Positions 10,245-62,519 of a stretch of DNA of 64,000 nt are shown here, in pieces (positions within the stretch are counted from its first letter, which is position 1; every line of letters begins with the position of its first letter). The DNA is taken from NCBI GenBank assembly GCA_001780035.1, contig MFEY01000007.1, positions 331,146-395,145 of the forward strand, read 5' to 3'. The translations under genes were made by a program, and so were the position numbers. This stretch comes from Candidatus Doudnabacteria bacterium RIFCSPHIGHO2_12_FULL_48_16 (GTDB taxonomy: Bacteria; Patescibacteriota; Doudnabacteria; UBA920; O2-02-FULL-48-8). The notes below the pieces were generated by a model. It was given only the letters and a program-made list of their open reading frames with translations, was not told the DNA's origin and did not search any database.

Positions 10245-10763
10245 ATGAACGAGATACTTAAAAAAATTATTTTAGACTTACTGCGGCAGATGGGTTTTGA
10301 GGCCGAAGTTTATGAGCGGATGGAAGAAGACCGCACGGTTTTTAATGTCAAAACTAGAGACGCTCAGCTGTTGATCGGCAAGCAGGGTGCGAATCTGCAG
10401 GCTCTGCAGCATCTGATCCGAATTTTGTTTCGCAAGCAAACCAATGATGACCCGTCTCGCCCGGCGCGAGCCGAGGCGGACCGGTTTCCGTTTGCCGTCG
10501 ATATCGATGACTACAAAGACCAGCGCAGTTTGTATCTGAAGGAGTTGGCGCGCAAGGCCGCCCACCACGTGCGCCAAACCCGTAAGCCGGTGTCACTCGA
10601 ACCTATGCCGGCGCATGAGCGCCGGGTGGTCCATTCTTATCTTTCACTTTATAATGATATCGGTTCCGAAAGTGTGGGGGTGGAACCGAATCGCAAATTG
10701 ATTATCAAGCCCAAACAAAAACCCAAGGACAAGGATGGGTTTAATTTCGTCGAAAATAGTTAA
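10245..10763 (+). CDS. jag: RNA-binding protein Jag/KhpB (KH + R3H domains)
   Basis: Canonical position after yidC. The R3H-like C-terminus ends ...IIKPKQKPKDKDGFNFVENS. Confidence 0.75.
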   Translation: MNEILKKIILDLLRQMGFEAEVYERMEEDRTVFNVKTRDAQLLIGKQGANLQALQHLIRILFRKQTNDDPSRPARAEADRFPFAVDIDDYKDQRSLYLKELARKAAHHVRQTRKPVSLEPMPAHERRVVHSYLSLYNDIGSESVGVEPNRKLIIKPKQKPKDKDGFNFVENS

Positions 10764-11545
10764 GCCCGGATCTTTAGTGGTTTAGAAATTTGCCAGATCA
10801 ATTCAAATTGGCCCTTTAGCATTTCAGCCAATTCTTCACTTTCAATCAAAAACCCGAAATTTTCCCGTGAGGATGAGATAAACCTCACGGTATTTTTGTA
10901 TATGGCGTACCCCAGGGAAAAATTAATGTTTGTTTGCGCGATTCGGACTTCCCTTTTGAATTCTGGGCCGAAAGCTAAGAATTTATGAACTTTGATAGAC
11001 GGGATTTGGTTTTGTGGCCAAATCACCTTGATTTTGATGTTGTTGGCTAATCTTTTTTTGTTGAATTCTTCTATAAAGTCAGGACCCAAAGTCTCCAACA
11101 CGTTCAGTATCGGCCAATAAGCCAAGAGGGTTATGTTTTCGTAGAGCAATAAATCCTTCATCATTTGCCGAAGTTCTTCCTGAGTTTCGAATAGCTGCAC
11201 CCGGGGCTGAAACAATTTACCATTCTTAGTATGTATACTTTTTAATTCATTCAAGGCTTGGCGGGCTTCAATAAGTTTATTCTCTTTTTCTTGGATTAAG
11301 AGATTGATTTTTTCGTATGGTGAAATAGCGAATAGTTTAATTCCATTTTTGAGAGTCTCAAAGACCAGACCCAGTTTAGTCATCTGGTCTAAAGAATTAT
11401 ATACTGTCGTCCGATTGGACTTTATTTGCTTAGCCAGAGAACTGGCTTTTTGAGGGCCGGTTAGAAGCAGGACCTCAAAAATTTGTATCTGAGAAGGATC
11501 CAAAGCAAATACTGAATAGATTGATTTTAAGTTCATTGTTGTCAA
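10760..11545 (-). CDS. TrmB-like HTH transcriptional regulator (paralog 1 of 5)
   Basis: N-terminal winged HTH (IQIFEVLLLTGPQKASSLAKQIKSNRTTVYNSLDQMTKLGLV) plus a ~170-aa C-terminal domain shared with 13630, 21130, 42443 and 55485. Confidence 0.6.
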   Translation of the reverse strand: MTTMNLKSIYSVFALDPSQIQIFEVLLLTGPQKASSLAKQIKSNRTTVYNSLDQMTKLGLVFETLKNGIKLFAISPYEKINLLIQEKENKLIEARQALNELKSIHTKNGKLFQPRVQLFETQEELRQMMKDLLLYENITLLAYWPILNVLETLGPDFIEEFNKKRLANNIKIKVIWPQNQIPSIKVHKFLAFGPEFKREVRIAQTNINFSLGYAIYKNTVRFISSSRENFGFLIESEELAEMLKGQFELIWQISKPLKIRA

Positions 11546-11600: not shown

Positions 11601-12263
11601 TTGATGGAGGACAACATGAAAAAACGATTGTTGGTAGTCGATCTGGGTTACACGCAGGGCCAATCGGTTATCGGCCAATTCCCCGAGTCTACGGAATTGA
11701 AGGTCGTGTATACATTGGAAGAGGCACATGAGGAAGTTCGGCCCAAATATGGTCATACGTGGGAAGAACTGTGGGCGCAGTATAGGCCGAACCATGCAGG
11801 AGGCAATACTCAATGGTGGCATCATTTCAAAATAAGACGTGAGAAGTTACTCCAATCGCGCCTGCCATACTGGGACGCAGTGTTGACTGACTTGTGGGAG
11901 AACGACACAGATCAGATTCCCGTAGGGTTTGGAATAGCCACGATCGCTGTATTCTCCGGGGCCAAATACGTAGGGATTATGCAAAGGCGTAGTCGCAAAG
12001 ACTCCATCTTTCATTGGCTGCCAGGTTTAGGTTTTGATAACCCATCATGGTTGCAGATCGAAGAAAGAAAAGTTATCGTGTCTAACGACCAACCATATGG
12101 GAAGGGGTGGTGTGAGCAGTGGAACGATCTTTTGAGAACATCGGTGGTCTCCAATGAATTCCCCACGGATAGTTACACGAACCAGCGGGTAAAGATGGAG
12201 GAAATGGGCGGCTATGAGGCAGCTGTAAACCACTACTGGCCAGATCTCATCAAACCTAAATAA
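11601..12263 (+). CDS. Hypothetical Trp/His-rich protein (ORFan)
   Basis: 220-aa ORF with good coding periodicity, divergent from TrmB paralog 1 and followed by an intrinsic terminator. I recognise no domain. Confidence 0.45.
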   Translation: MMEDNMKKRLLVVDLGYTQGQSVIGQFPESTELKVVYTLEEAHEEVRPKYGHTWEELWAQYRPNHAGGNTQWWHHFKIRREKLLQSRLPYWDAVLTDLWENDTDQIPVGFGIATIAVFSGAKYVGIMQRRSRKDSIFHWLPGLGFDNPSWLQIEERKVIVSNDQPYGKGWCEQWNDLLRTSVVSNEFPTDSYTNQRVKMEEMGGYEAAVNHYWPDLIKPK

Positions 12264-13629: not shown

Positions 13630-14388
13630 ATGCCGCCAGTTTTTATGGCAGAATCCCAATTAGAGCGCATTCTTATCGAATATGGGCTTAGACAAAAACA
13701 AGCCAAGGTTTACTTGGCGTGTTTGGAAGTGGGTTCAGGCACCGTGCTGAAGATCGCCCAAGCCGCTGGCATGCCCCGTTCCACTACGGAACTGGAACTG
13801 AACCACTTGTTGGACAGCGGTCTGGTCTCCATGTATAAAAAGAAAAGCGTGAAGTATTTTAGTGCCGATGACCCTCATTCGCTTTTGAATTTACTGGAAG
13901 AAAAATCCGAACTAATCCAAAGAGCGCTGCCAAAATTTGTTTCTTTATATGGCAGCAATAAAACCAGGCCCTCAGTGCGATTTTACGAAGGCCGTCAGGG
14001 GTTGAAGCTAGTCTTAGGTGAAATACTTGTGGAAGCCAAGGAATTAATTTCACTTGGTTCAGCAGAGGATTTATTTAAAGTTTTGGAAGACTTTCCGGAA
14101 TTCGTAATGAAAAGAGTGGAACGTAAAATTCCTGTTAAAGTTATTCTTATAGATTCTCCGAAGGCCAGAGAGAGAAAGCTTCTGGGACCACAACAGCTTC
14201 GGCAGGTAAGACTGATACCGGAAACTTACAGTTATCACGGTCAATACAATGTTTGGAACAACAAGATCGCGATGTTTTCCTTTGGCCGTAATTTGTCAGC
14301 TGTGGTAATAGAAAGCCTAGAACTGGCGCAAATGCAAAAGGCTGCCTTTAATTTTATGTGGGACAGCCTGGAGGTCAAGAGAAATTAA
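13630..14388 (+). CDS. TrmB-like HTH transcriptional regulator (paralog 2 of 5)
   Basis: N-terminal HTH ILIEYGLRQKQAKVYLACLEVGSGTVLKIAQAAGMPRSTTELELNHLLDSGLV and the conserved C-terminal domain. Confidence 0.6.
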   Translation: MPPVFMAESQLERILIEYGLRQKQAKVYLACLEVGSGTVLKIAQAAGMPRSTTELELNHLLDSGLVSMYKKKSVKYFSADDPHSLLNLLEEKSELIQRALPKFVSLYGSNKTRPSVRFYEGRQGLKLVLGEILVEAKELISLGSAEDLFKVLEDFPEFVMKRVERKIPVKVILIDSPKARERKLLGPQQLRQVRLIPETYSYHGQYNVWNNKIAMFSFGRNLSAVVIESLELAQMQKAAFNFMWDSLEVKRN

Positions 14389-21129: not shown

Positions 21130-21876
21130 TTATTTTATAATCTTATCATACGGCTCCGCTTGTTTCCAAGCAAACTCAAATAATGTCCGAAGCGACTGAT
21201 GAATGGTTTTGCTTTGAATTAATACAGCAAAAATATGCGGTTGATAGGAAAAAAACACCACGTTGCCATCGAATAAGCAATTATCTGTGAGAAATTCTTC
21301 TCCGGGTTTGGTAAATCGTTGTTGGTAATATTCAGTATGAGTTACATTTTCCGCGAATTTGAGGTCCGCGGGATTTTGAGTCAAAATCTCCAAGACTTTA
21401 GTTTTTTTGGCCAGTGTGTTGGCAACTAACTTTTTTTCATAATCCGGATAGATGGTGACAAAATCTCGGATAGTGCCGAAAAAAATAACCTCTTTGGCAT
21501 TTAAAATTTTATCATATAAATCTTTTATCGCTTCTTTGCCTTCAAACAATAAAACCTGTGGTTTATTTTTTGGTTCATTATAGACGGCCAGTAGGTTAGG
21601 CATGAACCTTTTGACTAGCTCTTGTTTGCGATTCAGATCCGAGAGGATTTTGTCCGGCGACTCTGGCATGTATAAAATCTTCTTCGCTCGCGGTACTAGA
21701 GCGGCCAATCCCTTCTTCTGTAGCTCGTCGAGGATCAGATAAGTCGTGGGGCGCTTAGTCCCCGCTTTCTTGGCGATCCCTTCAACTGAAGAGGTACCCA
21801 ATTCCAATAAAGCCATATAGACCATGGCTTCTTTTTGGTTTAATCCGATTTTCTCCAGTATTTCTGCGATTTCCAT
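21130..21876 (-). CDS. TrmB-like HTH transcriptional regulator (paralog 3 of 5)
   Basis: EAMVYMALLELGTSSVEGIAKKAGTKRPTTYLILDELQKKGL HTH plus the conserved C-terminal domain. Confidence 0.6.
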   Translation of the reverse strand: MEIAEILEKIGLNQKEAMVYMALLELGTSSVEGIAKKAGTKRPTTYLILDELQKKGLAALVPRAKKILYMPESPDKILSDLNRKQELVKRFMPNLLAVYNEPKNKPQVLLFEGKEAIKDLYDKILNAKEVIFFGTIRDFVTIYPDYEKKLVANTLAKKTKVLEILTQNPADLKFAENVTHTEYYQQRFTKPGEEFLTDNCLFDGNVVFFSYQPHIFAVLIQSKTIHQSLRTLFEFAWKQAEPYDKIIK

Positions 21877-21899
21877 TTGGTTCTCTTCAGATTAGATCT

Positions 21900-21940
21900 C
21901 CCCTCTCCTGACTAGGAGAGGGGCCGGGGGTGAGGTTAGC
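21900..21940. repeat. Copy A of a ~40-nt palindromic repeat (CCCCTCTCCT-gact-AGGAGAGGGG + CCGGGGGTGAGGT)
   Basis: Inverted-orientation copy of the element at 56381-56416: the 10-bp stem sequence is identical and the flank is about 90% identical. Confidence 0.45.
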
Positions 21941-22113: not shown

Positions 22114-23097
22114 ATGAAAAAACTATATGCGGGGTTTGGGGTTGTGGTATTGCTTGTTGTTTTAATCATGGGATTGAAAGGTTTAAACCATTCTCAGGAC
22201 AGTAAGTCAGCCACTCTAAAGATCGGACTTAATCCGTGGATCGGCAATGGGCTGTATTTTATCGCTCAGGAAAAAGGATTCTTCGAGGCAAATAATATCA
22301 ACGTTAAGCTCGAGAGCTTTGACGATGGCGCAATCGGCAAGCAATTGTTAAATAGTGGGAAAGTGGATGTGCTTCCTATTACGCCTGAAACCGTAGTGAT
22401 AATTAAAGATTCGGGTCTGGGCATTAAAATTATTGGAATGACGGTTGCCAGTAAAGGCGCTGATGGCATAATTGCGACTAGAGATGTTCAGAATCTTACC
22501 GATCTTCGCGGTAAAAAAGTTGCATTCGAAGTTGGCTCCCCTTCTCATTTCCTGCTGTCTTATTTTTTAGATCAGCAGAATTTAGATACCAGTATTTTGG
22601 ATGTGGTTAATACCACAGCCCCTGATGCCGGAGCTGCTTTCGTGGCGGGTCAGGTGGACGCCGCTGTAACTTGGGAGCCGTGGCTGTCCAAAGCAAGCGA
22701 ACGACCAGGTGGGCATGTCTTGCTGAGTTCTAAAACCATGGAATTATTTCCTGACATGATGATTATCAGGAACGATGTACTCGAAAGCAACCCAGAAGCA
22801 GCCGCGGCTCTATTGCGCTCTTTGTTTGCTGCGATTGATTGGATAAATGCCAACAATGACGAAGCGGCTGAAATTATCGGGAAAAATTTTCAAATCTCCC
22901 CGGAAGAAGTTAAGGCACAGCTTGCGACCATCCAGTGGTTAACTTATGACGATAACATTGTCAGCTTCAAATCTGGCCAGCCTCAGGACTTGCTGCAAAA
23001 AGCCGGGGATCTCTGGCTTAGACTGGATTTGATCCGGAATCCTATTAGTGGCACTAATTTGGTTGATGACTCTATATTAATTAATCTCTATAAATGA
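22114..23097 (+). CDS. ABC transporter substrate-binding protein, NMT1/SsuA/TauA-like (NitT/TauT family)
   Basis: 327 aa with an N-terminal signal/anchor and a type-2 periplasmic-binding fold of the sulfonate/nitrate/taurine family. Confidence 0.7.
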   Translation: MKKLYAGFGVVVLLVVLIMGLKGLNHSQDSKSATLKIGLNPWIGNGLYFIAQEKGFFEANNINVKLESFDDGAIGKQLLNSGKVDVLPITPETVVIIKDSGLGIKIIGMTVASKGADGIIATRDVQNLTDLRGKKVAFEVGSPSHFLLSYFLDQQNLDTSILDVVNTTAPDAGAAFVAGQVDAAVTWEPWLSKASERPGGHVLLSSKTMELFPDMMIIRNDVLESNPEAAAALLRSLFAAIDWINANNDEAAEIIGKNFQISPEEVKAQLATIQWLTYDDNIVSFKSGQPQDLLQKAGDLWLRLDLIRNPISGTNLVDDSILINLYK

Positions 23098-23876
23098 AAT
23101 TAGAAAGGAAAATCAGCAGGAATAAATATATACTCTTCGGATCCGCAGGATTGCTGGTTTTCCTTTCTGTTTGGTCGTTACTGACGTATACAGGATTAGT
23201 GCCAGCGTTCTTTCTACCGCCACCGAGCAAGGTATTATCGGCTATTGCAGATTTGCTAATCAAAGGGAATTTGTTGGGCGATATCTTCGCCAGCTCTTCC
23301 AGGATTTTTTTTGGTTTCCTTTTGTCTCTAGTGGTAGCTTTGCCTATTGGAATTGCCCTCGGTATATCACGGAAGTTTGAGGCGTTCATAGAACCCATTA
23401 TCGCCTTTATTCGATATATTCCGCCCTCTGCATTTATACCATTAGCAATCATTTGGTTTGGGATTGGGGAGCTTGAAAAAGTCACGATATTGTTTATGGG
23501 GATAGCGCCTTACTTGACATTATTGATCGCTGACGTTGTCATAAACAGCCGTAGGGATTTGGTTGAGGCTGCCTTAACTCTCGGAGCTGATCATCAAAGC
23601 GTGATCCTTAAAGTCATACTGCCAAACTGTTTTCCTGGGATTTGGGACTCGTTACGGATCATGATGGGGGCAGCTTGGACTTTTGTGATTATCGCAGAAA
23701 TTGTCGGAGCAAGTGCCGGCTTGGGACATTTGATGATTGAATCGCAGAGATTTTTAAGAACTGACAATATTTTTGGCGGGATTGTTGTGATTGGGTTTTT
23801 GGGACTGACTACGGATTATTTTTTTAAAGTAACTTACAAGTCGTTATTTAAGTGGACCGAGAAATCCAATGCTTGA
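23094..23876 (+). CDS. ABC transporter permease (SsuC/TauC-like)
   Basis: Six transmembrane helices and the EAA-like loop LTLGADHQSVILKVILP. Translationally coupled by a 4-nt overlap. Confidence 0.75.
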   Translation: MKLERKISRNKYILFGSAGLLVFLSVWSLLTYTGLVPAFFLPPPSKVLSAIADLLIKGNLLGDIFASSSRIFFGFLLSLVVALPIGIALGISRKFEAFIEPIIAFIRYIPPSAFIPLAIIWFGIGELEKVTILFMGIAPYLTLLIADVVINSRRDLVEAALTLGADHQSVILKVILPNCFPGIWDSLRIMMGAAWTFVIIAEIVGASAGLGHLMIESQRFLRTDNIFGGIVVIGFLGLTTDYFFKVTYKSLFKWTEKSNA

Positions 23877-24615
23877 AATATCAAATATTTCTAAATTATA
23901 TAAACATAACGACCAGTGGTCGGAAGTTATCAAAGATGTCACCTTGCCGATTGCAGACCGGGAGTTCATTGCGATTGTAGGACCGAGCGGTTGCGGTAAA
24001 ACAACACTACTCAAGATTCTTGCGGGGTTGCTGGAACCTTCAAGCGGCAAAATTTTACTGGACGGCAAAGAGATCACCGCACCGGGAAAGGACTTGGGGT
24101 TGGTGTTCCAGGGCTTCACGCTTTTCCCCTGGTTGAACGTCTGGGAAAACATTGCCTTCGGATTAAATATAAGAAACTTGAAGCAAGAAGAAGTGGTAAA
24201 GACCGTGAATCATTATTTAACCGTAACTGGCCTAAAAGACTTTGCTGAATATTTTCCCAAGGATTTGTCCGGAGGCATGCAGCAAAGGGTTGCCATTGCG
24301 CGTACTTTGGCCAATAATCCCAAGATATTGTTGATGGATGAGCCGTTTGGCGCTCTCGACTCCCAGACCCGTTCGCAGATGCAGGAGTTCTTGACCCGTC
24401 TATGGGAAGCAGAACATAAAACAGTTGTTTTTGTTACTCACGATGTAAATGAAGCGGTTTTTTTGGCTGATAAGGTCTATGTTTTTAGCCCCCAACCCAC
24501 TGAGATAAAAAAAGTTTTTAACGTGCCTTTCCCCCGCCCACGTACTCACGCGCTTAAACGTACTAAGGAATTTTTTGACTTCAGTAATCAAGTCGCACAC
24601 GAGTTCGAGCAATAG
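23869..24615 (+). CDS. ABC transporter ATP-binding protein (SsuB/TauB-like)
   Basis: Walker A GPSGCGKTT, signature LSGGMQQRVAIARTL and Walker B ILLMDEPF. Confidence 0.85.
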   Translation: MLEISNISKLYKHNDQWSEVIKDVTLPIADREFIAIVGPSGCGKTTLLKILAGLLEPSSGKILLDGKEITAPGKDLGLVFQGFTLFPWLNVWENIAFGLNIRNLKQEEVVKTVNHYLTVTGLKDFAEYFPKDLSGGMQQRVAIARTLANNPKILLMDEPFGALDSQTRSQMQEFLTRLWEAEHKTVVFVTHDVNEAVFLADKVYVFSPQPTEIKKVFNVPFPRPRTHALKRTKEFFDFSNQVAHEFEQ

Positions 24616-24626
24616 AAATTAATTTG

Positions 24627-24655
24627 TTGAACAGAGTTAAATTAAGGTATAAATA
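24627..24655 (+). promoter_or_regulatory. Promoter candidate P1 (TTGAAC-17-TAAATA), near-duplicate of the one at 25584
   Basis: GTTGAACAGAGTTAAATTAAGGTATAAATAATA versus GTTGAAAAGAATTAAATTAGGTATATAATAAGG at 25583-25614 (about 27 of 32-33 aligned positions, one 1-nt indel). Confidence 0.45.
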
Positions 24656-24688
24656 ATACAAGTATTAATACACCGAAAGGAAGATTAT

Positions 24689-25420
24689 ATGGGCAGAGGA
24701 GATACTACTAACAGGCCATCCGATCCAAGCAATCCAGAGGCGCAATCAAGTTCGCTGGAAATCTTACAAAGGAGAATGGCACAATTACAAGAACAGACAG
24801 CTTCTGCGCAGAGAGAGAAAGAGGCAGCCGTAGGCAGAAAACAGGCAGATTTGGCTAGGACTCTAACTGCACACCAAGGTGCCCAATTGGAAAAGCAAAG
24901 AGTGGCTGCTGGGATAGAACAGACTAAAGCAGAATTAATACAGTTTGAGGCGGTAAAGCAACAAGCCAAAGCCGCAGGGATTGCAGTAGAGGACGACGAA
25001 GGATTTACGGCTGCTTTTCAGGCAGAAAAGAATAGGTTGGCAGAATTAGAACAAAGTCAAAGGGAATTAACAATAAGGATCAATGTTCTGGCAAGTGATC
25101 CTGAAGCTGTGGCAGGAATAAAGACTGAAATCGAGGCAAATAACAAGAAAGAATTGGAAGAAACAGAAACAGATATGCGCATGGCTTTACTTGAATTCGC
25201 ACTTAATTTACGGAATAGATTTATTGATTCTGATCATAGACCAGGCGACGTAGCAGAAGAAATGAGGCAAGCACTCGAATCCTCTGAAACACTCGACTCC
25301 CTTACTGCTCAGGGTGAAGTTTTTAGGCAGCATGAATATAATATCGGGCAAGATCGAGTTGCAATAAGATATCTTGAACTTAAGGCAAAAGCACAAAGTC
25401 TTAGGGAATCAGGGAAGTAA
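24689..25420 (+). CDS. Hypothetical acidic coiled-coil protein (ORFan A)
   Basis: 243 aa with no signal peptide, long heptad-like Gln/Glu/Ala-rich helices, its own promoter and a terminator at 25444-25468. Confidence 0.5.
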   Translation: MGRGDTTNRPSDPSNPEAQSSSLEILQRRMAQLQEQTASAQREKEAAVGRKQADLARTLTAHQGAQLEKQRVAAGIEQTKAELIQFEAVKQQAKAAGIAVEDDEGFTAAFQAEKNRLAELEQSQRELTIRINVLASDPEAVAGIKTEIEANNKKELEETETDMRMALLEFALNLRNRFIDSDHRPGDVAEEMRQALESSETLDSLTAQGEVFRQHEYNIGQDRVAIRYLELKAKAQSLRESGK

Positions 25421-25443
25421 AAGAATTTACCGGTTAAAGAAAA

Positions 25444-25468
25444 CTGCCTCGAATTGAGGCGGTTTTGA
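25444..25468 (+). terminator. Intrinsic terminator (CTGCCTC-gaatt-GAGGCGG + TTTT)
   Basis: Hairpin with a T-run 24 nt after ORFan A. Confidence 0.6.
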
Positions 25469-25583
25469 AATTTATTTATACAAATTGCTGTGCGTGTGGG
25501 TTAAAATTAACTCCCCCGCAACCCCTCCCTGTCGGGTTAGAATAGACAGGAGTTTTTTCCAGCAGATTTAATAAGTTAGTCTG

Positions 25584-25611
25584 TTGAAAAGAATTAAATT
25601 AGGTATATAAT
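25584..25611 (+). promoter_or_regulatory. Promoter candidate P2 (TTGAAA-16-TATAAT)
   Basis: See P1. Consensus-like -35 and -10 elements. Confidence 0.5.
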
Positions 25612-25658
25612 AAGGTTAGAAAAAGTAACTAGCTTTGTTGTAAAAAGAAAGGAAAAAT

Positions 25659-26312
25659 ATGGGGACAGAAACTGAAGATGATGAGCAGGCAAAAGCAAAT
25701 TTTAAATTTCCTGAAAATCGTGTAGAAGATCCTAGCCCAGTAGCCGTTGAATCCAGAGACAGTCAAGCCGAAAAAGCAGAAGCAAAAATAGAGCAGAGTC
25801 TGACCGAGTGCCTGAATTTGGCACAAAACGATACTGACAGAGAAGATGTAAAGTATCTTTTCAGACAATTTTTAACAGGGTCTAGTTCGGTAGATAAGAC
25901 AGAAAGGTTACGAGGACTAACCCCTGACAACATACAGATTCTGGAAGCGAGAATAAACCGGGTTAGTGAATACGCAAAACTTCACATGGCGGTTTCGCAT
26001 ACAGGTGAAGCTTGGCAAGAAGCGAAAGGTAAATTTACTGAAGATTCAAAAGAATATCAAGCCGCACAAAAAGCTTATAAAGATACCCTTGAATCATACA
26101 ATGTTGCCAGAGCAATGGTCGCCGCTTCCGATGTTGAAGTTATTAAATACAATGATCCGAATCTTGAAGACGACGAAAACTTGCGAAGAACAGCATTTGA
26201 ACTTGATACCGCCACAAAGTATACGGATTCAGTGGATAGCCTGCCTTATTCCCAGCAGGAAATTAGGGCTATCCGGGCCAGAAGTGAAGCCAAGAATAAA
26301 TTAAGTTCTTAA
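25659..26312 (+). CDS. Hypothetical acidic coiled-coil protein (ORFan B)
   Basis: 217 aa with a Glu/Asp-rich N-terminus, helical, followed by a terminator at 26332. The promoter is paralogous to that of ORFan A. Confidence 0.5.
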   Translation: MGTETEDDEQAKANFKFPENRVEDPSPVAVESRDSQAEKAEAKIEQSLTECLNLAQNDTDREDVKYLFRQFLTGSSSVDKTERLRGLTPDNIQILEARINRVSEYAKLHMAVSHTGEAWQEAKGKFTEDSKEYQAAQKAYKDTLESYNVARAMVAASDVEVIKYNDPNLEDDENLRRTAFELDTATKYTDSVDSLPYSQQEIRAIRARSEAKNKLSS

Positions 26313-26331
26313 ATCTAAATCGAGATAACTA

Positions 26332-26362
26332 AAACCCGCCAGGCTTGGGCGGGTTTTTTATT
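26332..26362. terminator. Bidirectional terminator between ORFan B and gyrA (CCCGCC-aggcttg-GGCGGG + T-run)
   Basis: AAAACCCGCCAGGCTTGGGCGGGTTTTTTATTTT. Confidence 0.65.
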
Positions 26363-28822
26363 TTATATCAATGCGGTGGAGGCAACTTTGTCGCCGGCAT
26401 CCAGAGTCATAATTTTGACGCCCTGGGTGGCGCGGCCGAGGGTGGAGATCTTACCCACCGGCGTGCGCAGCGCCTGGCCGAGTTTGGACAGCACCACCAG
26501 GTCATGCTCTTCGGATTTGTCGATCACATGCAGGCTGACAATTTTGCCGGTCTTAGGGGTGACTTTCAGCGTCTTGATGCCGGAGCCGCCGCGGTGTTGT
26601 TTTTTGTAGAATTTCAAGTCGGTTTTTTTGCCCAGGCCGTTTTCCGTCACAATCAGCAGCTGGATGTTGTCGAGGCTTTCTTTCTTGCTGACTAGGTCCA
26701 TGCTGATCACGACGTCGTCCTTTTTAAGGCGCATGCCTTTGACCCCGGAGGCGGTGCGGCCCATGGGCCGGGCATCTTTTTCGTCGAAGCGGATGGCCTG
26801 GCCGTTGGCCGTGGTGAAAATCACGTCATCTGTGCCGGCGGAAGATTTGACCCAGCGCAGCTCGTCGCCGGGTTTGATTTTGATGGCAATCAGGCCGCTG
26901 CGGCGGACTTTGACGAACTCCTCAATTGGCGTTTTTTTGATCAAGCCTTTTTTCGTGGCCAGGACCAGGAATTTGGCCGCGGTTTTTTTGGAAATCGTCA
27001 GTACGGCCGAGACCAGCTCGTCGCTGGGCAGATCGAGGAAATTGACCAAAGCCTGGCCGCGCGCGGTGCGCGAGGCTTCTGGCAGCTCATATACTTTGGT
27101 GGCAAAAACTCGGCCCTTGGTTGTAAAGAACAGGATGTCGTCGTGGGTGTTGGTGGTCTTGAGCCATTCAACCACGTCCTCTTCTTTGGTCGCCATGCCG
27201 ATCACGCCCTTGCCGCCGCGGCCCTGGGATTTGTAAGTATCCGTCGGCAGGCGCTTGACATAGCCGGATTTAGTGATAATCACAATCGCCTGCTCTTCCG
27301 GAATCAGGTCTTCCGCCTTGAATTCGCCGATCGGCTGTTTGACCAAGACGGTCTTGCGCGGGTTGCCATATTTGTCCTTCAGTTCCAGCAGTTCGGTTTT
27401 GACCACGCCGCGGATCTTTTTCTCGCTTTTGAGCAGCGTTTCCAGCTCTTCGATCAGCTTCATTTTTTCTTTCAGTTCGTCATCAACTTTTTTGCGCTCC
27501 AGACCCGCTAACGCGCGCAGCTGCATTTGTAAAATTGCCGTCGCCTGTTTGTCCGACAGCTTGAATTTGCTCATCAGGCTGGCGTGGGCCTCTTCGGTCG
27601 TGTCGGATTTGCGGATGGTGGCAATGACGGCGTCGATATGGTCGAGGGCTTTTTTCAACCCCTCCAGAATATGCGCCCGGTCTTTGGCCTTGTTCAGATC
27701 GAACACGGTCCGGCGCGTAATAATCTGGATCCGATGTTTAATGTAATATTCCAAAGTGTTCTTCAGATTCAAAACCTGGGGCTCAATGCCATCCACCAGG
27801 GCCAGCATGTTGACGTGGAATGTTTCCTGCAGCTGGGAGAATTTAAACAGTTGGTTGAGAATTTTGTTCGGCAGGGCTTCTTTTTTCATTTCGACCACGA
27901 TCCGGACGCCGTCCTTGTCGGATTCGTCGCGCAGGTCCCGGATACCTTCGATTTTTTTGTCCTTGACCAGTTCGGCGAATTTTTCCAGCAGCGTGGCTTT
28001 GTTGACCTGGTAAGGAATTTCAGTAATTAAAATTTTGTGCATCCCCTTTTCTTCCACGATTTCGGTTTTGGCCCGCATGACGATCGGCCCCTTGCCCGTG
28101 GCATAGACTTGCTTGATCGTATTCCAGTCATAGATAAAGCCGCCGGTTGGGAAATCCGGGCCCTTTACAAATTCCAGCAATTCTTCGGTGGTGGTCGCCG
28201 GCTCTTCGATCAGTTTGACGGTGGCATCCACGATTTCACCTAAATTGTGCGGCGGGATATTGGTGGCCATGCCGACCGCGATCCCCAGGGTGCCGTTAAG
28301 CAGCAAGTTTGGGGCTTTGGCCGGCAGCACGCGCGGCTCCTGCCTGGTAGCGTCATAGTTTTCCATCCAGTCCACGGTGTCTTTGTCGAGGTCGGAGAGC
28401 ATCTCTTCGGCCAGGGCCATCATCCGCGCTTCGGTGTAACGCATGGCTGCGGGCGCGTCGCCATCCATGGAGCCGAAGTTGCCTTGGCCGTCGATCAGCG
28501 GATAGCGCATGGCAAACTCTTGGGCGAGGCGCACCAAAGAATCATATACGGCCACGTCGCCGTGCGGATGGTATTTGGCCAGCACTTCGCCAACAACTGC
28601 CGCGGATTTGCGGAATTTGGCGTTGTTGCGCAGGCCTAGCTCGTTCATGGCATAGAGAATCCGCCGGTGCACCGGCTTTAACCCATCCCGGACATCGGGC
28701 AGGGCGCGGGAAACGATCACGCTCATCGCGTAATCGAGATAAGATTCTTCCATTTCGCGTTCGATAGAGCGCGAGTTGACAGAGCCGATATTGGTGTTGG
28801 CCGCGGTTTTAATTTCGGACAT
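26363..28822 (-). CDS. gyrA: DNA gyrase subunit A
   Basis: [59 protein letters not shown], including the active-site Tyr region and the C-terminal beta-pinwheel repeats. The ATG at 28822 is preferred over the TTG at 28846. Confidence 0.95.
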
Positions 28823-29357
28823 TGGGGGATTGGTTAAGTTTGTCAAAATCCAAATCTAATTCCTGCCTGAAAATTTTATCAGGATTTTTTTCCAAAAATA
28901 GATTGTCAAAACTGAGCACCCCGGTTTTGTCGTTGGTGGCTTTGAAATTCATGATCCCGAAAATCTGGGTGTGGGACAGGACTTTTTGGGCCAGAGGCTG
29001 GCCTTGCCGGTCCAGCAAGCTGCCGGGATGCAGGCTGCCTTCGTCAACCGTCAAAGAGATGTCATCTGTTTTGGAAACGTTCAGGATATCATTGGTCTCA
29101 TTTTTGAGGGTAAAGTAGATTTTTAAGCTGCCCGCGATGCGCTCGACCCGCTCCACTCCCAAAAACTGATTGGTCAGTTCGCTGCTCGCCGGCTCCTGGG
29201 GCGGTGCGCTTTGGCCGTCGCTGTTTTTAATCGTTGATTTGAGGTTTACTGTCCAGATGATGAGCAGGCCTATGGCGATGACCACGGTGGTTATCCAGAG
29301 AATTTTAACCCGGGTCTCGTATGGTTGGTTTTGGAGGCGTTCAAGCAAGCGGCGCAT
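28809..29357 (-). CDS. Hypothetical membrane-anchored protein
   Basis: 182 aa with one N-terminal transmembrane segment ([21 protein letters not shown]) and an extracytoplasmic domain. It overlaps the gyrA start by 14 nt. Confidence 0.45.
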
Positions 29358-37726: not shown

Positions 37727-38767
37727 TTATCCGAAGGTGAAGGTAAAGGCTTCAAAACCAGCCCCTTCAATTTGCAACTCTAAAATCCGCTGTTTGGAAT
37801 CCGTACCTTCAACAAGAGTATAAAGGCTGGAATCTTGAATCTTTGTTGTTTTAATTAGCTTGCCATCAATTAATACTTTAACGTTAATTTCACTATCGCC
37901 CTTGGCTACTATATGAACATCTTTGGAATAAAAATTAAGCCTGATTTTGCCCGAAGTGCCGACAAGTTTGACGCCTTCATCATTAAATGACCACTGGCCT
38001 TCCAGAGCAAAATTATTCAAAGGAAGCTCAGAAGGAAAATTATATTGTTGATTCGCTTCTGATGGTTTCTGGTTTTTTGAAAGCAGCTCCAGACGCTTTA
38101 ATCCAAAATATATTTCGGGAGTCTCAACCACTTTCTGGATATTTTCTTCCGCCATCTCATTTTCATCACCAAGTCCAATCAGCTGCTGAATGGCTTGTTC
38201 GGTTTCTTGATATTTTCCTTCGCCAAAATGGGTATAAACAATCTTTCCAGATTGATCTATCAAATAATGTGCTGGCCAGTAGCGATTGCTATAGGCTTGC
38301 CAAGTGCCATAGTCATTATCTTGGGCTACAGGATAATTTATCCCATGTCTTTTCAAAGCGGTTTGAACGTTTGATGTGTCTTTTTCAAACGCAAATTCCG
38401 GCGTATGGACGCCGACGACCACAAAACCTTTGTCTTTATATTTCTCATACCATCCTGTGACATAAGGCAGCGTCCTGATACAGTTGATGCATGAGTATGT
38501 CCAAAAATCGATCAACACAACTTTGCCGCGTAATTGCTGCATGGTTAATGGATCTGAACCTGCCTGACCGGCAGGCAGGTTAAGCCAATTTGCAATACCG
38601 GTAAATTCGGGCGCTACGCCATAATTTTCTAATTTAACATCATCCATGGAATCATTTTTAAATAAGGACAAGCTAGTATCAGACCCATCTTTGGTTCTAT
38701 CCAGATAAAATCCGCCAACAACTAGAAAAATTGCGACTATTAAAATGTAGAGATAAGTTTTTTTCAT
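37727..38767 (-). CDS. TlpA/ResA-like thiol:disulfide oxidoreductase (thioredoxin fold, CxxC) with extra C-terminal domain
   Basis: N-terminal transmembrane segment. KVVLIDFWTYSCINCIRTLPYVTGWYEKYKDKGFVVVGVHTPEF, plus about 150 extra aa at the C-terminus. Confidence 0.7.
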   Translation of the reverse strand: MKKTYLYILIVAIFLVVGGFYLDRTKDGSDTSLSLFKNDSMDDVKLENYGVAPEFTGIANWLNLPAGQAGSDPLTMQQLRGKVVLIDFWTYSCINCIRTLPYVTGWYEKYKDKGFVVVGVHTPEFAFEKDTSNVQTALKRHGINYPVAQDNDYGTWQAYSNRYWPAHYLIDQSGKIVYTHFGEGKYQETEQAIQQLIGLGDENEMAEENIQKVVETPEIYFGLKRLELLSKNQKPSEANQQYNFPSELPLNNFALEGQWSFNDEGVKLVGTSGKIRLNFYSKDVHIVAKGDSEINVKVLIDGKLIKTTKIQDSSLYTLVEGTDSKQRILELQIEGAGFEAFTFTFG

Positions 38768-38769
38768 GT

Positions 38770-39471
38770 CTAGAACTTTGGGTTTAATGCCGGGATAAAT
38801 TCCAAAAGTTTGGCTTGGAGCAAGGTATCATATTGAAAATATATGGCTACAGCCAGAAGTAAAATAATAATACCGAATACCTGCTGTAATCTGTGGGCAT
38901 AGGGTGCAATACCTTTGACTTTAGTAGTCAACGCTTGGCCGCCATAGGCAATGGCCAGCATTGGAAGCCCTGCCCCTACCGCATAGGCAATAAGTAATAT
39001 TCCGGCTCTGGTTATATCCTGCTGCTGTGCGACTAAAGTTAAAATTGAACCAAGAATTGGGCCAGCGCAAGGAGCCCAGACAATTCCAATCACCACTCCG
39101 ATTATGAACCCTCCCAAATTTCCCTTGCCCGCACTTCGGCCGGTTTGACTGGCTTTGTTAATCAACCCAGACAAGTGCATTGTCATCCTCTCAAATGGAG
39201 TCGGCCAGATCATGAACAAGGCAAAAATTGCCAGGACAATAGCCGCGCTATTTCTTAAGGCATTTGGGGACAACCCCAAATTTTGGATTATGAAGTTAAG
39301 GGTCAATCCTAGAACCGCAAAGGTCAGAACAAATCCTAATGTTATAAATATCGGTCGGGTTTTGCTTTGCTGGCCTACGGAACTGCCTAAAATAATCGGC
39401 AACGGCAAAAGAATACAAGGAGCGGCAATAGTTAAAATTCCAGCTAAAATTGCAAGTAATACTTCAATCAT
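38770..39471 (-). CDS. ccdA: Cytochrome c-type biogenesis / disulfide-reductant transporter CcdA (DsbD_2 family)
   Basis: Six transmembrane helices with conserved Cys pairs (IAAPCILLPL...WAPCAGPILGSILTL). Confidence 0.75.
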   Translation of the reverse strand: MIEVLLAILAGILTIAAPCILLPLPIILGSSVGQQSKTRPIFITLGFVLTFAVLGLTLNFIIQNLGLSPNALRNSAAIVLAIFALFMIWPTPFERMTMHLSGLINKASQTGRSAGKGNLGGFIIGVVIGIVWAPCAGPILGSILTLVAQQQDITRAGILLIAYAVGAGLPMLAIAYGGQALTTKVKGIAPYAHRLQQVFGIIILLLAVAIYFQYDTLLQAKLLEFIPALNPKF

Positions 39472-39472
39472 T

Positions 39473-39991
39473 TTATTTTAAATATTTCTTGAGATTATCT
39501 ATGTCGCCACCATTCCATTTGCTGACTTGATTTTCATTATTGTCGATCTGAACGAAAGTGTGCTGATAAGTAACTCCATATTTTTGTTTCAATTCTGTAT
39601 TGGAATCATAATTGGTTTTAAGTACAGTTACACCAGCTGGAATTTCATTGGCGCGGGATATAAATTCAGCATTAGCGGCTTTGCAGAAAGGACACCATGG
39701 AGCGTGGAAAAACAACACGACCTTGTTTCCAGCTTTCTGTTCAGCCTCAACCGTAGCAATAGAATAATCCTTATACGATCCAGCTTTTTGCATCATAGTA
39801 TCGGAATCATCCATCATTTTATCATCTTTCATGATACTCTCGTCAGATTTATCCTCCATCATTGCGTTTTCAGATTTATTATTATTTTGAACTAAAGCCC
39901 AAACTAGCCCAACGCCGATCAATAGAATCACAACAATTGATATTACCAAGGTTTGTGAAAATCCTTTTTGTTTATTCATAAAATTGGACAT
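39473..39991 (-). CDS. Membrane-anchored thioredoxin-like protein (CPFC active site)
   Basis: N-terminal transmembrane segment. ...KVVLFFHAPWCPFCKAANAEF.... Confidence 0.7.
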   Translation of the reverse strand: MSNFMNKQKGFSQTLVISIVVILLIGVGLVWALVQNNNKSENAMMEDKSDESIMKDDKMMDDSDTMMQKAGSYKDYSIATVEAEQKAGNKVVLFFHAPWCPFCKAANAEFISRANEIPAGVTVLKTNYDSNTELKQKYGVTYQHTFVQIDNNENQVSKWNGGDIDNLKKYLK

Positions 39992-55484: not shown

Positions 55485-56330
55485 TTGGAGTGGCCAATAC
55501 CACCACGAGGTGATAATTATCACCACAAAAATATGTATCAAGAAACTCTACAATCCTTGGGATTAAGCCCAAATGAGGCGAAAATTTATGAAACCCTGGT
55601 CGGGACTGGGGAGACGACTATTGGGGACATTGCCGTGGCCGCCAAAGTTCACCGGCGGAATGTTTATGATTCCGTTCAACGCTTGATTGAAAAAGGCCTG
55701 TGTTTTGAGGTTTTTTCGAGCGGCGGGAATTTATATAGCGCAGTCGATCCAGGTAAACTTTCCGAATTGGTGGCGGAAAAACAACAAAAATTAGAATTGA
55801 TTTTACCAGAATTGCAAAAGAAATTTCGGAAAGGAACTGAGAAGGAAGAAGCTTACATTTATAGAGGCTTTGAAGGTCAGAAAAATGTTTGGCGTGATAT
55901 ATTGCGAGTTGGTAAAGACAGTTATTTTATTGGAGCCAAAGGAGGTTGGTTTGATCCGCGGATTGATAAAACTGCCCGTGATGTTTTTTTCCGCGAAGCT
56001 AATCGAAAAAAAATAAAATTTACTCAACTATTTGATTATGAAGTTAAGGAGCAAATGCCGGACTTTCCGCGTTATTTTCCAGGAGACTTAAAATATCGCT
56101 TTCTCCCAAAAAAATATTCCACTACTTCCGGGGTTGGGATATTTGGGGATTATGTGATTACTTACACCGGGTTAGGGGTTATTGGCCGAATGGAGGAGAA
56201 TACTGTATTTTTTATTTTACACAGCAAAGATTTGGCAGAATCCTACCGGACTTGGTTTTGGTATATGTGGGAGCAGTCGGAGGAAGATAAAAAGCCACGT
56301 AGCGCGAATCACGAAACACGTAACAAATAA
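55485..56330 (+). CDS. TrmB-like HTH transcriptional regulator (paralog 5 of 5)
   Basis: EAKIYETLVGTGETTIGDIAVAAKVHRRNVYDSVQRLIEKGL HTH plus the conserved C-terminal domain. Confidence 0.55.
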   Translation: MEWPIPPRGDNYHHKNMYQETLQSLGLSPNEAKIYETLVGTGETTIGDIAVAAKVHRRNVYDSVQRLIEKGLCFEVFSSGGNLYSAVDPGKLSELVAEKQQKLELILPELQKKFRKGTEKEEAYIYRGFEGQKNVWRDILRVGKDSYFIGAKGGWFDPRIDKTARDVFFREANRKKIKFTQLFDYEVKEQMPDFPRYFPGDLKYRFLPKKYSTTSGVGIFGDYVITYTGLGVIGRMEENTVFFILHSKDLAESYRTWFWYMWEQSEEDKKPRSANHETRNK

Positions 56331-56380: not shown

Positions 56381-56416
56381 CCTCACCCCTGGCCCCTCTC
56401 CTCGCCAGGAGAGGGG
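56381..56416. repeat. Copy B of the ~40-nt palindromic repeat (ACCTCACCCCTGG + CCCCTCTCCT-cgcc-AGGAGAGGGG)
   Basis: See 21900-21940. It lies in the spacer upstream of infB. Confidence 0.45.
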
Positions 56417-56437
56417 AATCTAAATTGAAATAAGTAA

Positions 56438-61961: not shown

Positions 61962-62519
61962 ATGATCGAACTCAGAGATAAATCTAGGTTTGACGCTTCA
62001 AAATATGACTCTAGTGAAAAGGCTGACAAAGCCTTTGAAAGGTTGTCATTAGACGAAATTGAACGCCAAAAAGCCGAGCATAGATTTTTAGACGAGAGGC
62101 AGCATGAGCTATATAAGTTTCAGACTGGAATTGGTACAGACATTAGACTTATTAGCCACGAACTTCAATCCAATAGTCCACCAACAGAAATTTCTCGACA
62201 ACGATTGGATGAGTTACAACGTCAATTTAATGGGCTTAAGATAAAAGCTGAAAGATTTTTTCAAGACCAAAAGGAAAAATTTAGAGGAGGTGTGTATCCT
62301 CTGAAAACTGATTTTAGTGTAGTGACTAAAGGGACTGATGTAGGTCATCACTACGATACTGCTTTACATGCAGAACGAGCATCTTTAATAGAACAATACC
62401 AAATTTTAATAATGGCTATTGGTAATTATCAAATAGTTCTTGAGGATCTGGATATACCCAGTATTCAGAGGAGACTGAATGAACGAAAGCAAGCAGGAGC
62501 TGCTAAGGAAGCAAAATAA
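61962..62519 (+). CDS. Hypothetical coiled-coil protein
   Basis: 185-aa ORF, charged and helical. I recognise no domain. Confidence 0.45.
   Translation: MIELRDKSRFDASKYDSSEKADKAFERLSLDEIERQKAEHRFLDERQHELYKFQTGIGTDIRLISHELQSNSPPTEISRQRLDELQRQFNGLKIKAERFFQDQKEKFRGGVYPLKTDFSVVTKGTDVGHHYDTALHAERASLIEQYQILIMAIGNYQIVLEDLDIPSIQRRLNERKQAGAAKEAK

What the first reader, a model, noticed from the sequence alone, without database searches (positions are those of the whole stretch)
24616..26362. Two tandem acidic coiled-coil ORFans (243 and 217 aa), each with its own near-identical promoter and its own terminator
Both genes follow the same plan: a promoter (TTGAAC-17-TAAATA at 24627 and TTGAAA-16-TATAAT at 25584), a purine-rich leader, an ATGGG start, and a rho-independent terminator (25444 and 26332). 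The roughly 33-nt promoter blocks match at about 27 aligned positions (GTTGAA.AGA.TTAAATTA.GGTATA.AATAA), which implies duplication of the regulatory module.

The two proteins show little obvious sequence similarity to each other, but share composition. They have no signal peptide, are Glu/Asp/Gln/Ala-rich, and are long predicted helices or coiled coils. I recognise no domain in either.

In a reduced genome, two independently and strongly expressed paralogous units of this kind could be abundant structural, storage or host-interaction proteins. They sit between an ABC importer and gyrA.
Basis: seen in the sequence. Interest (0 to 1): 0.5.

Follow-up and report, generated by a model that had tools for sequence, protein, structure and literature searches.

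The report
Two acquired helical-protein gene cassettes
Two small genes for acidic, all-helical proteins of unknown function, each with its own promoter and terminator, were inserted into a changeable spot next to gyrA in one groundwater Doudnabacteria species; they are real but look like ordinary lineage-specific accessory genes.

Summary
The sequence features are real. ORF1 (24689-25420, 243 aa) and ORF2 (25659-26312, 217 aa) each have a sigma-70-like promoter, a Shine-Dalgarno site, an ATGGG start and a hairpin/T-run terminator. The two promoter regions share a 42-column block (35 identical). No other copy was found in the 64-kb window or in about 1.4 Mb of related loci.

The organism is a Candidatus Doudnabacteria (CPR/Patescibacteria) from Rifle groundwater. 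In relatives, the backbone lactB-hyp182-gyrA-(rsmI)-yebC-ruvC is conserved. The gap after gyrA is variable and holds toxin-antitoxin genes, methyltransferases, TrmB regulators or ORFans. Here it holds trmB, an ABC importer, ORF1 and ORF2.

Both ORFs have GC3 of 0.32, against 0.54 for the window mean and 0.71 for gyrA. ORF2 is not a strict ORFan. It has three homologues, one of them a low-GC3 insert beside a RelE-type toxin-antitoxin pair inside a type IV pilus cluster of another lineage. ORF1 has no homologue in any search I could run.

The two proteins are not detectably paralogous. Neither matches PspA, phasin or any other family, and their models are generic helical bundles.

Best reading: moron-like, horizontally acquired accessory cassettes that encode soluble, non-enzymatic binding proteins. 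Function is unknown. Interest is low.

The parts
24616..24657 (+). Promoter block 1. It runs from an AT-rich stretch upstream of the -35 through TTGAAC (24627-24632), a 17-nt spacer and TAAATA (24650-24655).
   Evidence: 35 of 42 columns are identical to block 2.
24689..25420 (+). ORF1: 243 aa, acidic (pI 5.05), all-helical, no homologue found. The Shine-Dalgarno site AAAGGAAG lies at 24676-24683. NCBI annotates a shorter 214-aa form that starts at 24776.
   Evidence: Prodigal-type gene calls on ENA contigs give 243 aa.
25440..25477 (+). Intrinsic terminator of ORF1: a 12-bp stem, a 3-nt loop, then a T-rich tail.
25510..25561 (+). C-rich stretch followed by a second, weaker hairpin and a T6 run (CCTGTC..GACAGG AGTTTTTT) in the ORF1-ORF2 spacer. 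Unexplained. It may be a tandem terminator or a remnant.
25573..25614 (+). Promoter block 2: TTGAAA (25584-25589), a 16-nt spacer, then TATAAT (25606-25611).
25659..26312 (+). ORF2: 217 aa, acidic (pI 4.77), helical. It belongs to a tiny uncharacterised family with a variable acidic N-terminus and a conserved core of about 170 aa.
26331..26357 (.). Hairpin with an A-run on one side and a T-run on the other. It lies between the convergent ORF2 and gyrA and probably acts as a bidirectional terminator for both.
22114..24615 (+). Three-gene ABC importer: an NMT1/SsuA-type binding protein, a BPD_transp_1 permease and an ABC ATPase. It lies in the same inserted interval, has GC3 0.45-0.50, and has no terminator before the ORF1 promoter.
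21130..21876 (-). TrmB-family regulator, divergent from the ABC operon. It marks the inner boundary of the variable slot and is followed by yebC-ruvC.
26363..28846 (-). gyrA, the conserved backbone gene that forms the other boundary of the slot.

Best explanation
ORF1 and ORF2 are two real, separately transcribed accessory genes. Each is built like a phage 'moron': its own sigma-70-type promoter, one gene, its own intrinsic terminator. They lie in a variable insertion slot between gyrA and the trmB-yebC-ruvC genes of one Candidatus Doudnabacteria species.

They were probably acquired horizontally from an AT-richer source, possibly the same mobile element. That origin, or a later copying of the promoter, would explain why the two unrelated genes carry nearly the same 42-nt promoter block and would be switched on together.

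The products are soluble, cytoplasmic, acidic, all-helical proteins. They have a disordered N-terminus and no catalytic domain, so they most likely act by binding other macromolecules as inhibitors or adaptors. The company kept by the ORF2 family (toxin-antitoxin and restriction-modification genes) makes a role in conflict between mobile elements, phages and the host my best guess.

Shown: the gene anatomy, the shared private promoter block, the atypical composition, the variable slot, the patchy distribution, and the lack of any family match. Inferred: horizontal origin, co-regulation, cytoplasmic location, a binding role and the conflict function.
For: - Anatomy and promoter block.
- Composition: GC3 is 0.324 and 0.321, against a window mean of 0.541 (sd 0.119) and 0.714 for gyrA.
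- Conserved backbone: lactB-hyp182-gyrA is found in all of about 20 Doudnabacteria loci. gyrA is followed directly by yebC-ruvC in L008, L011, L012, L021, L022 and L023.
- Variable slot: here 5.2 kb is inserted. The closest syntenic relative, L027 (trmB 75% identical), carries three unrelated genes in the same place. In other relatives the slot holds a MazE antitoxin, a Gp49/HigB-like toxin, a 23S-IVS protein, a methyltransferase, a PaaX-like protein or TrmB.
- Absence from relatives: neither ORF is present in any of the 80 related loci.
- ORF2 homologues: P0003 has GC3 0.31 and lies next to a RelE/antitoxin pair (antitoxin GC3 0.26), between pilMNO and pilB (GC3 0.64-0.76), in a different Patescibacteria lineage. 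A methyltransferase and a 200-aa protein I read as an HNH nuclease lie nearby. P0005 sits in a third context, between an aminotransferase and ClpB.
- Protein properties: no transmembrane segment or signal peptide, acidic and hydrophilic; all-helical models.
- Conservation at 35-48% identity across the ORF2 family shows that ORF2 codes for a protein.
Against: - No mobility gene (integrase or transposase), flanking direct repeat or phage gene lies next to the cassettes.
- There are no hits in viral contigs, INPHARED phages or PHROGs above noise, and none in PADLOC. The conflict role therefore rests on guilt by association from a single context.
- Low GC3 also marks other non-mobile-looking genes in this genome.
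- ORF1 has no homologue, so its coding status rests on ORF length, the Shine-Dalgarno site, the promoter and terminator, and strand skew alone.
- Expression has not been measured.
- The ABC importer in the same slot could mean the whole insert is metabolic.
Confidence: 0.5

Rival explanations
1. They are abundant structural, storage or membrane-stress proteins such as phasin or PspA/Vipp1/ESCRT-III relatives, strongly and constitutively expressed as part of the cell's core physiology.
For: - Both promoters are close to consensus and both have good Shine-Dalgarno sites.
- ORF1 is about the size of PspA and has a long helical hairpin.
- The top Foldseek PDB hit is VIPP1 7o3w_A, and ESCRT-III chains also appear.
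Against: - The Foldseek hits are not significant (E 0.38-1.5, TM 0.3-0.44).
- Pfam shows no PspA_IM30, Snf7 or phasin hit even at E up to 10.
- hhalign of ORF1 against PspA plus Vipp1 scores 13.3 (P 0.37), inside the range of shuffled ORF1 (9.4-21.9).
- The ORF1 N-terminus is polar and disordered, not an amphipathic membrane-binding helix.
- The genes are absent from all close relatives, which does not fit a core structural role.
Confidence: 0.08
2. They are effectors or surface factors for the episymbiotic lifestyle, exported without a classical signal peptide and perhaps linked to type IV pili.
For: - An ORF2 homologue lies directly upstream of pilB inside a type IV pilus cluster.
- Rapidly evolving, lineage-specific genes are expected for host interaction.
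Against: - The pilus-cluster copy is a low-GC3 insert together with a toxin-antitoxin pair, so the adjacency looks accidental.
- Two other family members are not near pilus genes.
- There is no signal peptide, no transmembrane segment and no class III pilin signal.
Confidence: 0.12
3. They are tandem duplicates of one ancestral gene plus promoter. The coding regions have diverged beyond recognition while the promoter stayed conserved.
For: - The promoter block and the Shine-Dalgarno/start region are shared.
- The two have similar length, composition and layout: MG start, disordered acidic N-terminus, helical body.
- GC3 is identical.
Against: - There is no protein similarity by BLASTP or by profile comparison (probability 0.4%).
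- ORF2 homologues at 35-48% identity are still easily recognised, so ORF1 would have to have diverged far more while the non-coding promoter kept 83% identity. That order of decay is unusual.
- ORF2 homologues occur singly.
Confidence: 0.1
4. ORF1 alone is not a real protein-coding gene. It is a chance ORF or a recent de novo ORF in purine-rich acquired DNA.
For: - No homologue appears in any search.
- Its composition is low-complexity (A/E/Q/L/R-rich).
- The model confidence is only moderate (pLDDT 68).
Against: - A 243-codon ORF in 44%-GC DNA with a well-spaced Shine-Dalgarno site, a promoter and a terminator is unlikely by chance.
- Independent pipelines call it as a gene.
- An exhaustive search for ORF1 could not be run. 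The same word-seeded search missed the real ORF2 homologues, so homologues may exist.
Confidence: 0.05

Closest known systems
Phage 'morons' (autonomous promoter-gene-terminator cassettes; term from Juhala et al. 2000 on HK97/HK022, cited from my own knowledge)
   Same: Each is a single gene flanked by its own sigma-70 promoter and intrinsic terminator. Base composition differs from that of the neighbours. The cassettes are inserted between conserved genes and are present in one lineage but absent from close relatives.
   Different: They are not inside a recognisable prophage. No phage genes lie nearby, and nothing matches in phage or viral collections.
Variable chromosomal islets or hotspots that carry toxin-antitoxin, restriction-modification and other accessory genes
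   Same: The gyrA-yebC gap differs between related genomes. It carries a MazE antitoxin with a RelE-like partner (my reading), a Gp49/HigB-like toxin, methyltransferases and ORFans. The ORF2 homologue P0003 is co-inserted with a RelE-type pair, near a methyltransferase and a 200-aa protein I read as an HNH nuclease.
   Different: ORF1 and ORF2 match no known defence, toxin or antitoxin family. No integrase or repeat boundaries were found.
PspA / Vipp1 (IM30) / ESCRT-III superfamily
   Same: ORF1 has a similar size and an all-helical layout with a long hairpin. The top Foldseek hit, though not significant, is VIPP1.
Phasins (PhaP, PHA-granule proteins)

Membership tests
PspA/Vipp1 (Pfam PF04012, IM30) | Significant sequence or profile match to the PspA_IM30 family | tested here: not met
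   Pfam at E up to 10 shows no PspA_IM30 hit. hhalign against E. coli PspA plus Synechocystis Vipp1 scores 13.3 (P 0.37); 30 shuffles of ORF1 score 9.4-21.9. The test profile held only two sequences.
PspA/Vipp1 (Pfam PF04012, IM30) | N-terminal amphipathic helix alpha-0 for membrane binding | tested here: not met
   The ORF1 N-terminus, MGRGDTTNRPSDPSNPEAQSSS, is polar, is predicted non-helical up to residue 15, and has low pLDDT. The mean Kyte-Doolittle value of the first 30 residues is -1.31.
PspA/Vipp1 (Pfam PF04012, IM30) | ESCRT-III-type fold: an alpha1-alpha2/3 hairpin plus alpha4-5 | tested here: inconclusive
Phasin (PF05597 / PF09361) | Sequence match to a phasin family | tested here: not met
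   No Pfam, NCBIfam or PDB sequence hit for either protein.
Phage moron (operational definition) | Single gene with its own promoter and own terminator, and atypical composition | tested here: met
   The promoters and terminators are predicted, not measured.
Phage moron (operational definition) | Located within a phage or prophage genome | tested here: not met
   The neighbours are trmB, an ABC importer and gyrA. There are no relatives in viral contigs or phage records.
Known anti-phage defence or toxin-antitoxin components | Match to a PADLOC or Pfam defence or toxin-antitoxin model | tested here: not met
   PADLOC gives no hit for ORF1 or ORF2. P0003 hits PDC-S05 only at E 0.014.
ORF2 family (uncharacterised; alignment A1) | Conserved core of about 170 aa (ECL..AQ..D..F..L.G..LT..N..I.RV..AKL, NDPNLE, LPYS) | tested here: met
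   ORF2 matches P0003 at E 6e-48 (48% identity), P0004 at 5.5e-33 and P0005 at 6.6e-09. ORF1 is not a member.

The most novel reading that the evidence does not exclude
ORF1 and ORF2 are co-regulated parts of a previously undescribed CPR-specific system, either a phage/mobile-element conflict module or a host-interaction module. The private 42-nt promoter block would be the operator of a dedicated regulator, for example one of the several TrmB paralogues nearby. The ORF2 family would be a new mobile effector family that moves between Patescibacteria lineages.
Probability: 0.1. Interest if true: 0.55.

Novelty: new member of a known kind. Interest (0 to 1): 0.2.

Why it matters
If this reading is right, it matters only modestly. 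It is a clean example of how reduced CPR genomes gain lineage-specific genes. A fixed slot downstream of gyrA is refilled with different cargo in each species, and acquired genes arrive as self-sufficient promoter-gene-terminator units. It also defines a very rare protein family (ORF2 plus three relatives among about 15 billion proteins) that moves between Patescibacteria lineages beside toxin-antitoxin and restriction-modification genes. That family could be added to candidate lists for conflict systems. It opens no long-standing question.

Tried and rejected
1. Family assignment failed. Pfam, PHROGs, NCBIfam, PADLOC and PDB sequence searches gave only sub-threshold, inconsistent hits for both proteins, and for the ORF2 family scanned member by member or as a profile. 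Examples are E217_gp29 at E 0.03, PrgH at 0.015, Terminase_4 at 0.032 and phrog_3176 at 0.018. I treat these as noise.

3. I followed the PspA/Vipp1 lead and rejected it at sequence level.

4. Paralogy of ORF1 and ORF2 was rejected.

5. I looked for a regulon. A metagenome-wide scan for TGTTGAANAGANTTAAATTA gave 67 single hits from unrelated environments. None continues with GGTATA, and none lies near an ORF1 or ORF2 homologue. This organism's own locus was not among the matches, so that scan says nothing about the rest of its genome.

6. Population contigs carry no SNPs in either ORF, so no test of selection was possible.

7. No direct repeats of 10 nt or more flank the insert.

8. Rfam gave only chance, terminator-like hits.

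9. The 1530-aa repeat protein P0006 (E 1.9e-6, six stretches) is probably a spurious hit inflated by its repeats.

A planning error: I spent both structure-prediction jobs on single sequences before the ORF2 homologues were known.
Full report
**Observation**

The window holds two same-strand ORFs at the stated coordinates. ORF1 is 24689-25420 (243 aa) and ORF2 is 25659-26312 (217 aa).

- ORF1 is preceded by TTGAAC(24627)-17 nt-TAAATA and the Shine-Dalgarno site AAAGGAAG. It starts ATGGGC.
- ORF2 is preceded by TTGAAA(25584)-16 nt-TATAAT and AAAGGAAA. It starts ATGGGG. Its promoter matches 11 of 12 consensus positions, the best in the 8-kb scan.
- Hairpin/T-run terminators follow at 25440-25466 and 26331-26357. 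Both fold stably: -40.1 kcal/mol (z -2.45) for the 146-nt region containing the first, and -19 kcal/mol (z -2.75) for the second.
- The second hairpin has an A-run on one side and a T-run on the other. It sits 5 nt from the gyrA stop codon, so it probably terminates both convergent genes.

**The shared promoter block is real and specific**

- An ungapped 29-mer is 83% identical between the two sites.
- A gapped local alignment gives 35 identical of 42 columns, score 45. The 1431 pairs of upstream regions in this window average 15.6 (sd 3.4). The best of 1000 shuffles scores 36.
- The 20-nt core with up to 3 mismatches occurs only at these two sites in the window, against 0.07 expected.
- With up to 4 mismatches, no further copy turned up in 1.47 Mb of window plus related CPR loci. 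The nine 3-4-mismatch hits elsewhere look like chance: none continues with GGTATA, and the three I placed lie inside gyrA.
- It is therefore not a generic AT-rich promoter consensus.
- A metagenome-wide exact-pattern scan returned 67 single matches from unrelated habitats, and none extends into the rest of the block. This organism's own locus was not among the matches, so the rest of its genome remains unscanned.

**The proteins**

- Both are acidic and very hydrophilic: pI 5.05 and 4.77, GRAVY -0.77 and -0.92.
- Neither has a segment hydrophobic enough for a signal peptide or a membrane helix.
- Single-sequence AlphaFold2 models are all-helical with moderate confidence: pLDDT 68 and 65, pTM 0.40 and 0.53. 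Both have disordered N-termini.
- My crude heptad test finds only weak periodicity (ORF1 residues 99-161, z about 2-2.6). 'Elongated helical bundle' is a safer description than 'coiled coil'.
- The two proteins are not detectably related. BLASTP finds nothing. Comparing the ORF2-family profile with ORF1 gives probability 0.4%.

**Family searches**

- Pfam, PHROGs, NCBIfam, PADLOC and PDB sequence searches gave no significant or consistent hit.
- Foldseek against PDB gave no hit with E below 0.1.
- For ORF1 the top Foldseek hits were VIPP1 and ESCRT-III chains, so I tested that lead. hhalign against E. coli PspA plus Synechocystis Vipp1 scored 13.3 (P 0.37), inside the range of 30 shuffled ORF1 sequences (9.4-21.9).
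- ORF1 lacks the N-terminal amphipathic helix of PspA.
- Neither PspA nor phasin membership is supported.

**Who has these genes**

- The word-seeded search of 5.8 billion clusters found only self-hits. These identify the organism as Candidatus Doudnabacteria bacterium RIFCSPLOWO2_02_FULL (locus tags A3J07_00905 and A3J07_00910, annotated 'hypothetical').
- The same locus, essentially clonal, recurs on contigs from several groundwater samples.
- The single exhaustive HMMER job, spent on ORF2, found three true homologues: P0003 (238 aa, 48% identity, E 6e-48), P0004 (a 160-aa fragment) and P0005 (148 aa, probably frameshifted).
- A profile search added no more members.
- ORF2 therefore belongs to a very rare family. 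Its N-terminus is variable and acidic, and its core of about 170 aa is conserved.
- ORF1 has no homologue in any search I could run. The exhaustive search could not be repeated for it. Since the word-seeded search missed the ORF2 homologues, the ORFan status of ORF1 is provisional.

**Context**

A gyrA-anchored scan gave about 20 Doudnabacteria loci with 79-89% GyrA identity.

- All of them keep lactB-hyp182-gyrA.
- Downstream, the backbone is gyrA-(rsmI)-yebC-ruvC-tyrS(opposite strand)-PBP. In six loci, gyrA is followed directly by yebC.
- In this window, 5.2 kb lies between gyrA and yebC. It holds trmB, a three-gene NMT1/SsuA-type ABC importer, ORF1 and ORF2.
- The nearest syntenic relative, L027 (trmB 75% identical), has three unrelated genes in the same place, plus a MazE antitoxin and a RelE-like gene (my reading) beside trmB.
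- Other relatives carry a Gp49/HigB-like toxin, a 23S-IVS protein, a methyltransferase, a PaaX-like protein or a TrmB in the slot.
- Neither ORF1 nor ORF2 occurs in any of the 80 loci.

**Composition**

- ORF1 and ORF2 have GC3 of 0.324 and 0.321. The window mean is 0.541 (sd 0.119) and gyrA is 0.714.
- The ORF2 homologue P0003 shows the same signature in a different Patescibacteria lineage. Its GC3 is 0.31. It is co-inserted with a RelE/antitoxin pair (antitoxin GC3 0.26) between pilMNO and pilB (GC3 0.64-0.76). A methyltransferase and a 200-aa protein I read as an HNH nuclease lie nearby.
- P0005 lies in a third context, between an aminotransferase and ClpB.
- The pilus adjacency therefore looks accidental, and the family looks mobile.

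**Interpretation**

The best-supported reading is that these are moron-like, horizontally acquired accessory cassettes in a variable chromosomal slot.

- The shared promoter block most simply reflects a common origin (promoters of one class from one mobile element) or a local copying of the promoter.
- An ancient tandem gene duplication is less likely. The non-coding block is 83% identical while the proteins share nothing, and ORF2 relatives occur without an ORF1 partner.
- The products are soluble helical proteins with no catalytic signature. I infer that they act by binding other molecules. With low confidence, I infer a role in conflict between mobile elements, phages and the host, because of the toxin-antitoxin and restriction-modification company the family keeps.
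- There is no positive evidence for abundant structural or storage roles.
- No integrase, repeat boundary or phage relative was found, so the route of acquisition is unknown.

**Verdict**

This is an ordinary kind of feature for a CPR genome, namely lineage-specific hypothetical genes in a hotspot. Two details are mildly interesting: the private duplicated promoter, and a very rare mobile protein family. Interest is about 0.2.

Noticed in passing
window 21880-21930 (- strand) and 56386-56437 (+ strand); weaker look-alike at 25510-25560: A C-rich hairpin element, ACCTCACCCC[C/T]GGCCCCTCTCCT.G.CAGGAGAGGGGA..ATCTAA, lies just upstream of the trmB-like gene and of the 640-aa ORF at 56438. This is the most similar pair of upstream regions in the window (score 79). 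It could be a repeated leader, attenuator or REP-like element.
   Followed up: partly
window upstream of 11601-12263 (+) and of 39473-39991 (-): The two upstream regions share a 30-nt block, ATATT(A)TTTGC.TAATGTCAA.TCAACTTGA (score 45, equal to the ORF1/ORF2 pair). It may be a common operator. One copy lies in the divergent region next to a TrmB paralogue.
   Followed up: no
window 10760-11545 (-), 13630-14388 (+), 21130-21876 (-), 55485-56330 (+): Four proteins that I read by eye as TrmB-family regulators lie within 64 kb of a reduced genome; only 21130-21876 has a Pfam TrmB hit. All have lower-than-average GC3.
   Followed up: no
window 61962-62519 (+): Another very hydrophilic 185-aa ORF (GRAVY -0.84) has the lowest GC3 in the window (0.258). 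A TTGAAA hexamer and a TATAAT hexamer lie upstream, about 30 nt apart, too far for a standard promoter; a different block from ORF1/ORF2.
   Followed up: no
whole window: GC3 spans a wide range: conserved, core-looking genes lie at about 0.55-0.76, and lineage-specific or accessory-looking genes (HNH nuclease, TrmB paralogues, thioredoxin-like/CcdA-like cluster at 37727-39991, ORFans) at about 0.26-0.45. This suggests extensive mosaicism.
   Followed up: partly
L089 4554-5965 and 8153-9973 (same in L088, L090-L092): A type IV pilus cluster (pilM, pilN/O-like, pilB, pilT, pilC, pilin, prepilin peptidase) of another Patescibacteria lineage is interrupted by low-GC3 inserts. One holds an antitoxin, a RelE-like toxin and the ORF2 homologue. 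The other holds a 200-aa protein I read as an HNH nuclease and an N6/N4 DNA methyltransferase.
   Followed up: partly
L027 13974-14678 (- strand): A 234-aa ORF with GC3 0.75 and no Pfam hit sits among AT-rich cargo (GC3 0.29-0.34) in the gyrA-trmB slot of a relative. It looks like foreign DNA of a different origin.
   Followed up: no
protein P0006 (1530 aa): A eukaryote-like protein with about 14 tandem 48-aa repeats (VDNVQELSKALNKVSNGKVDVADVQPVLKGLKTHASEGE...) hits ORF2 residues 45-109 at E 1.9e-6 over six stretches. The score is probably inflated by the repeats. A shared helical motif is not excluded.
   Followed up: no
window 24776 vs 24689: NCBI annotates ORF1 as 214 aa starting at 24776, where AAGGAG lies only 1-2 nt from the ATG. 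The upstream ATG at 24689 has a properly spaced Shine-Dalgarno site and mirrors the ORF2 start region. The 243-aa form is more likely.
   Followed up: yes
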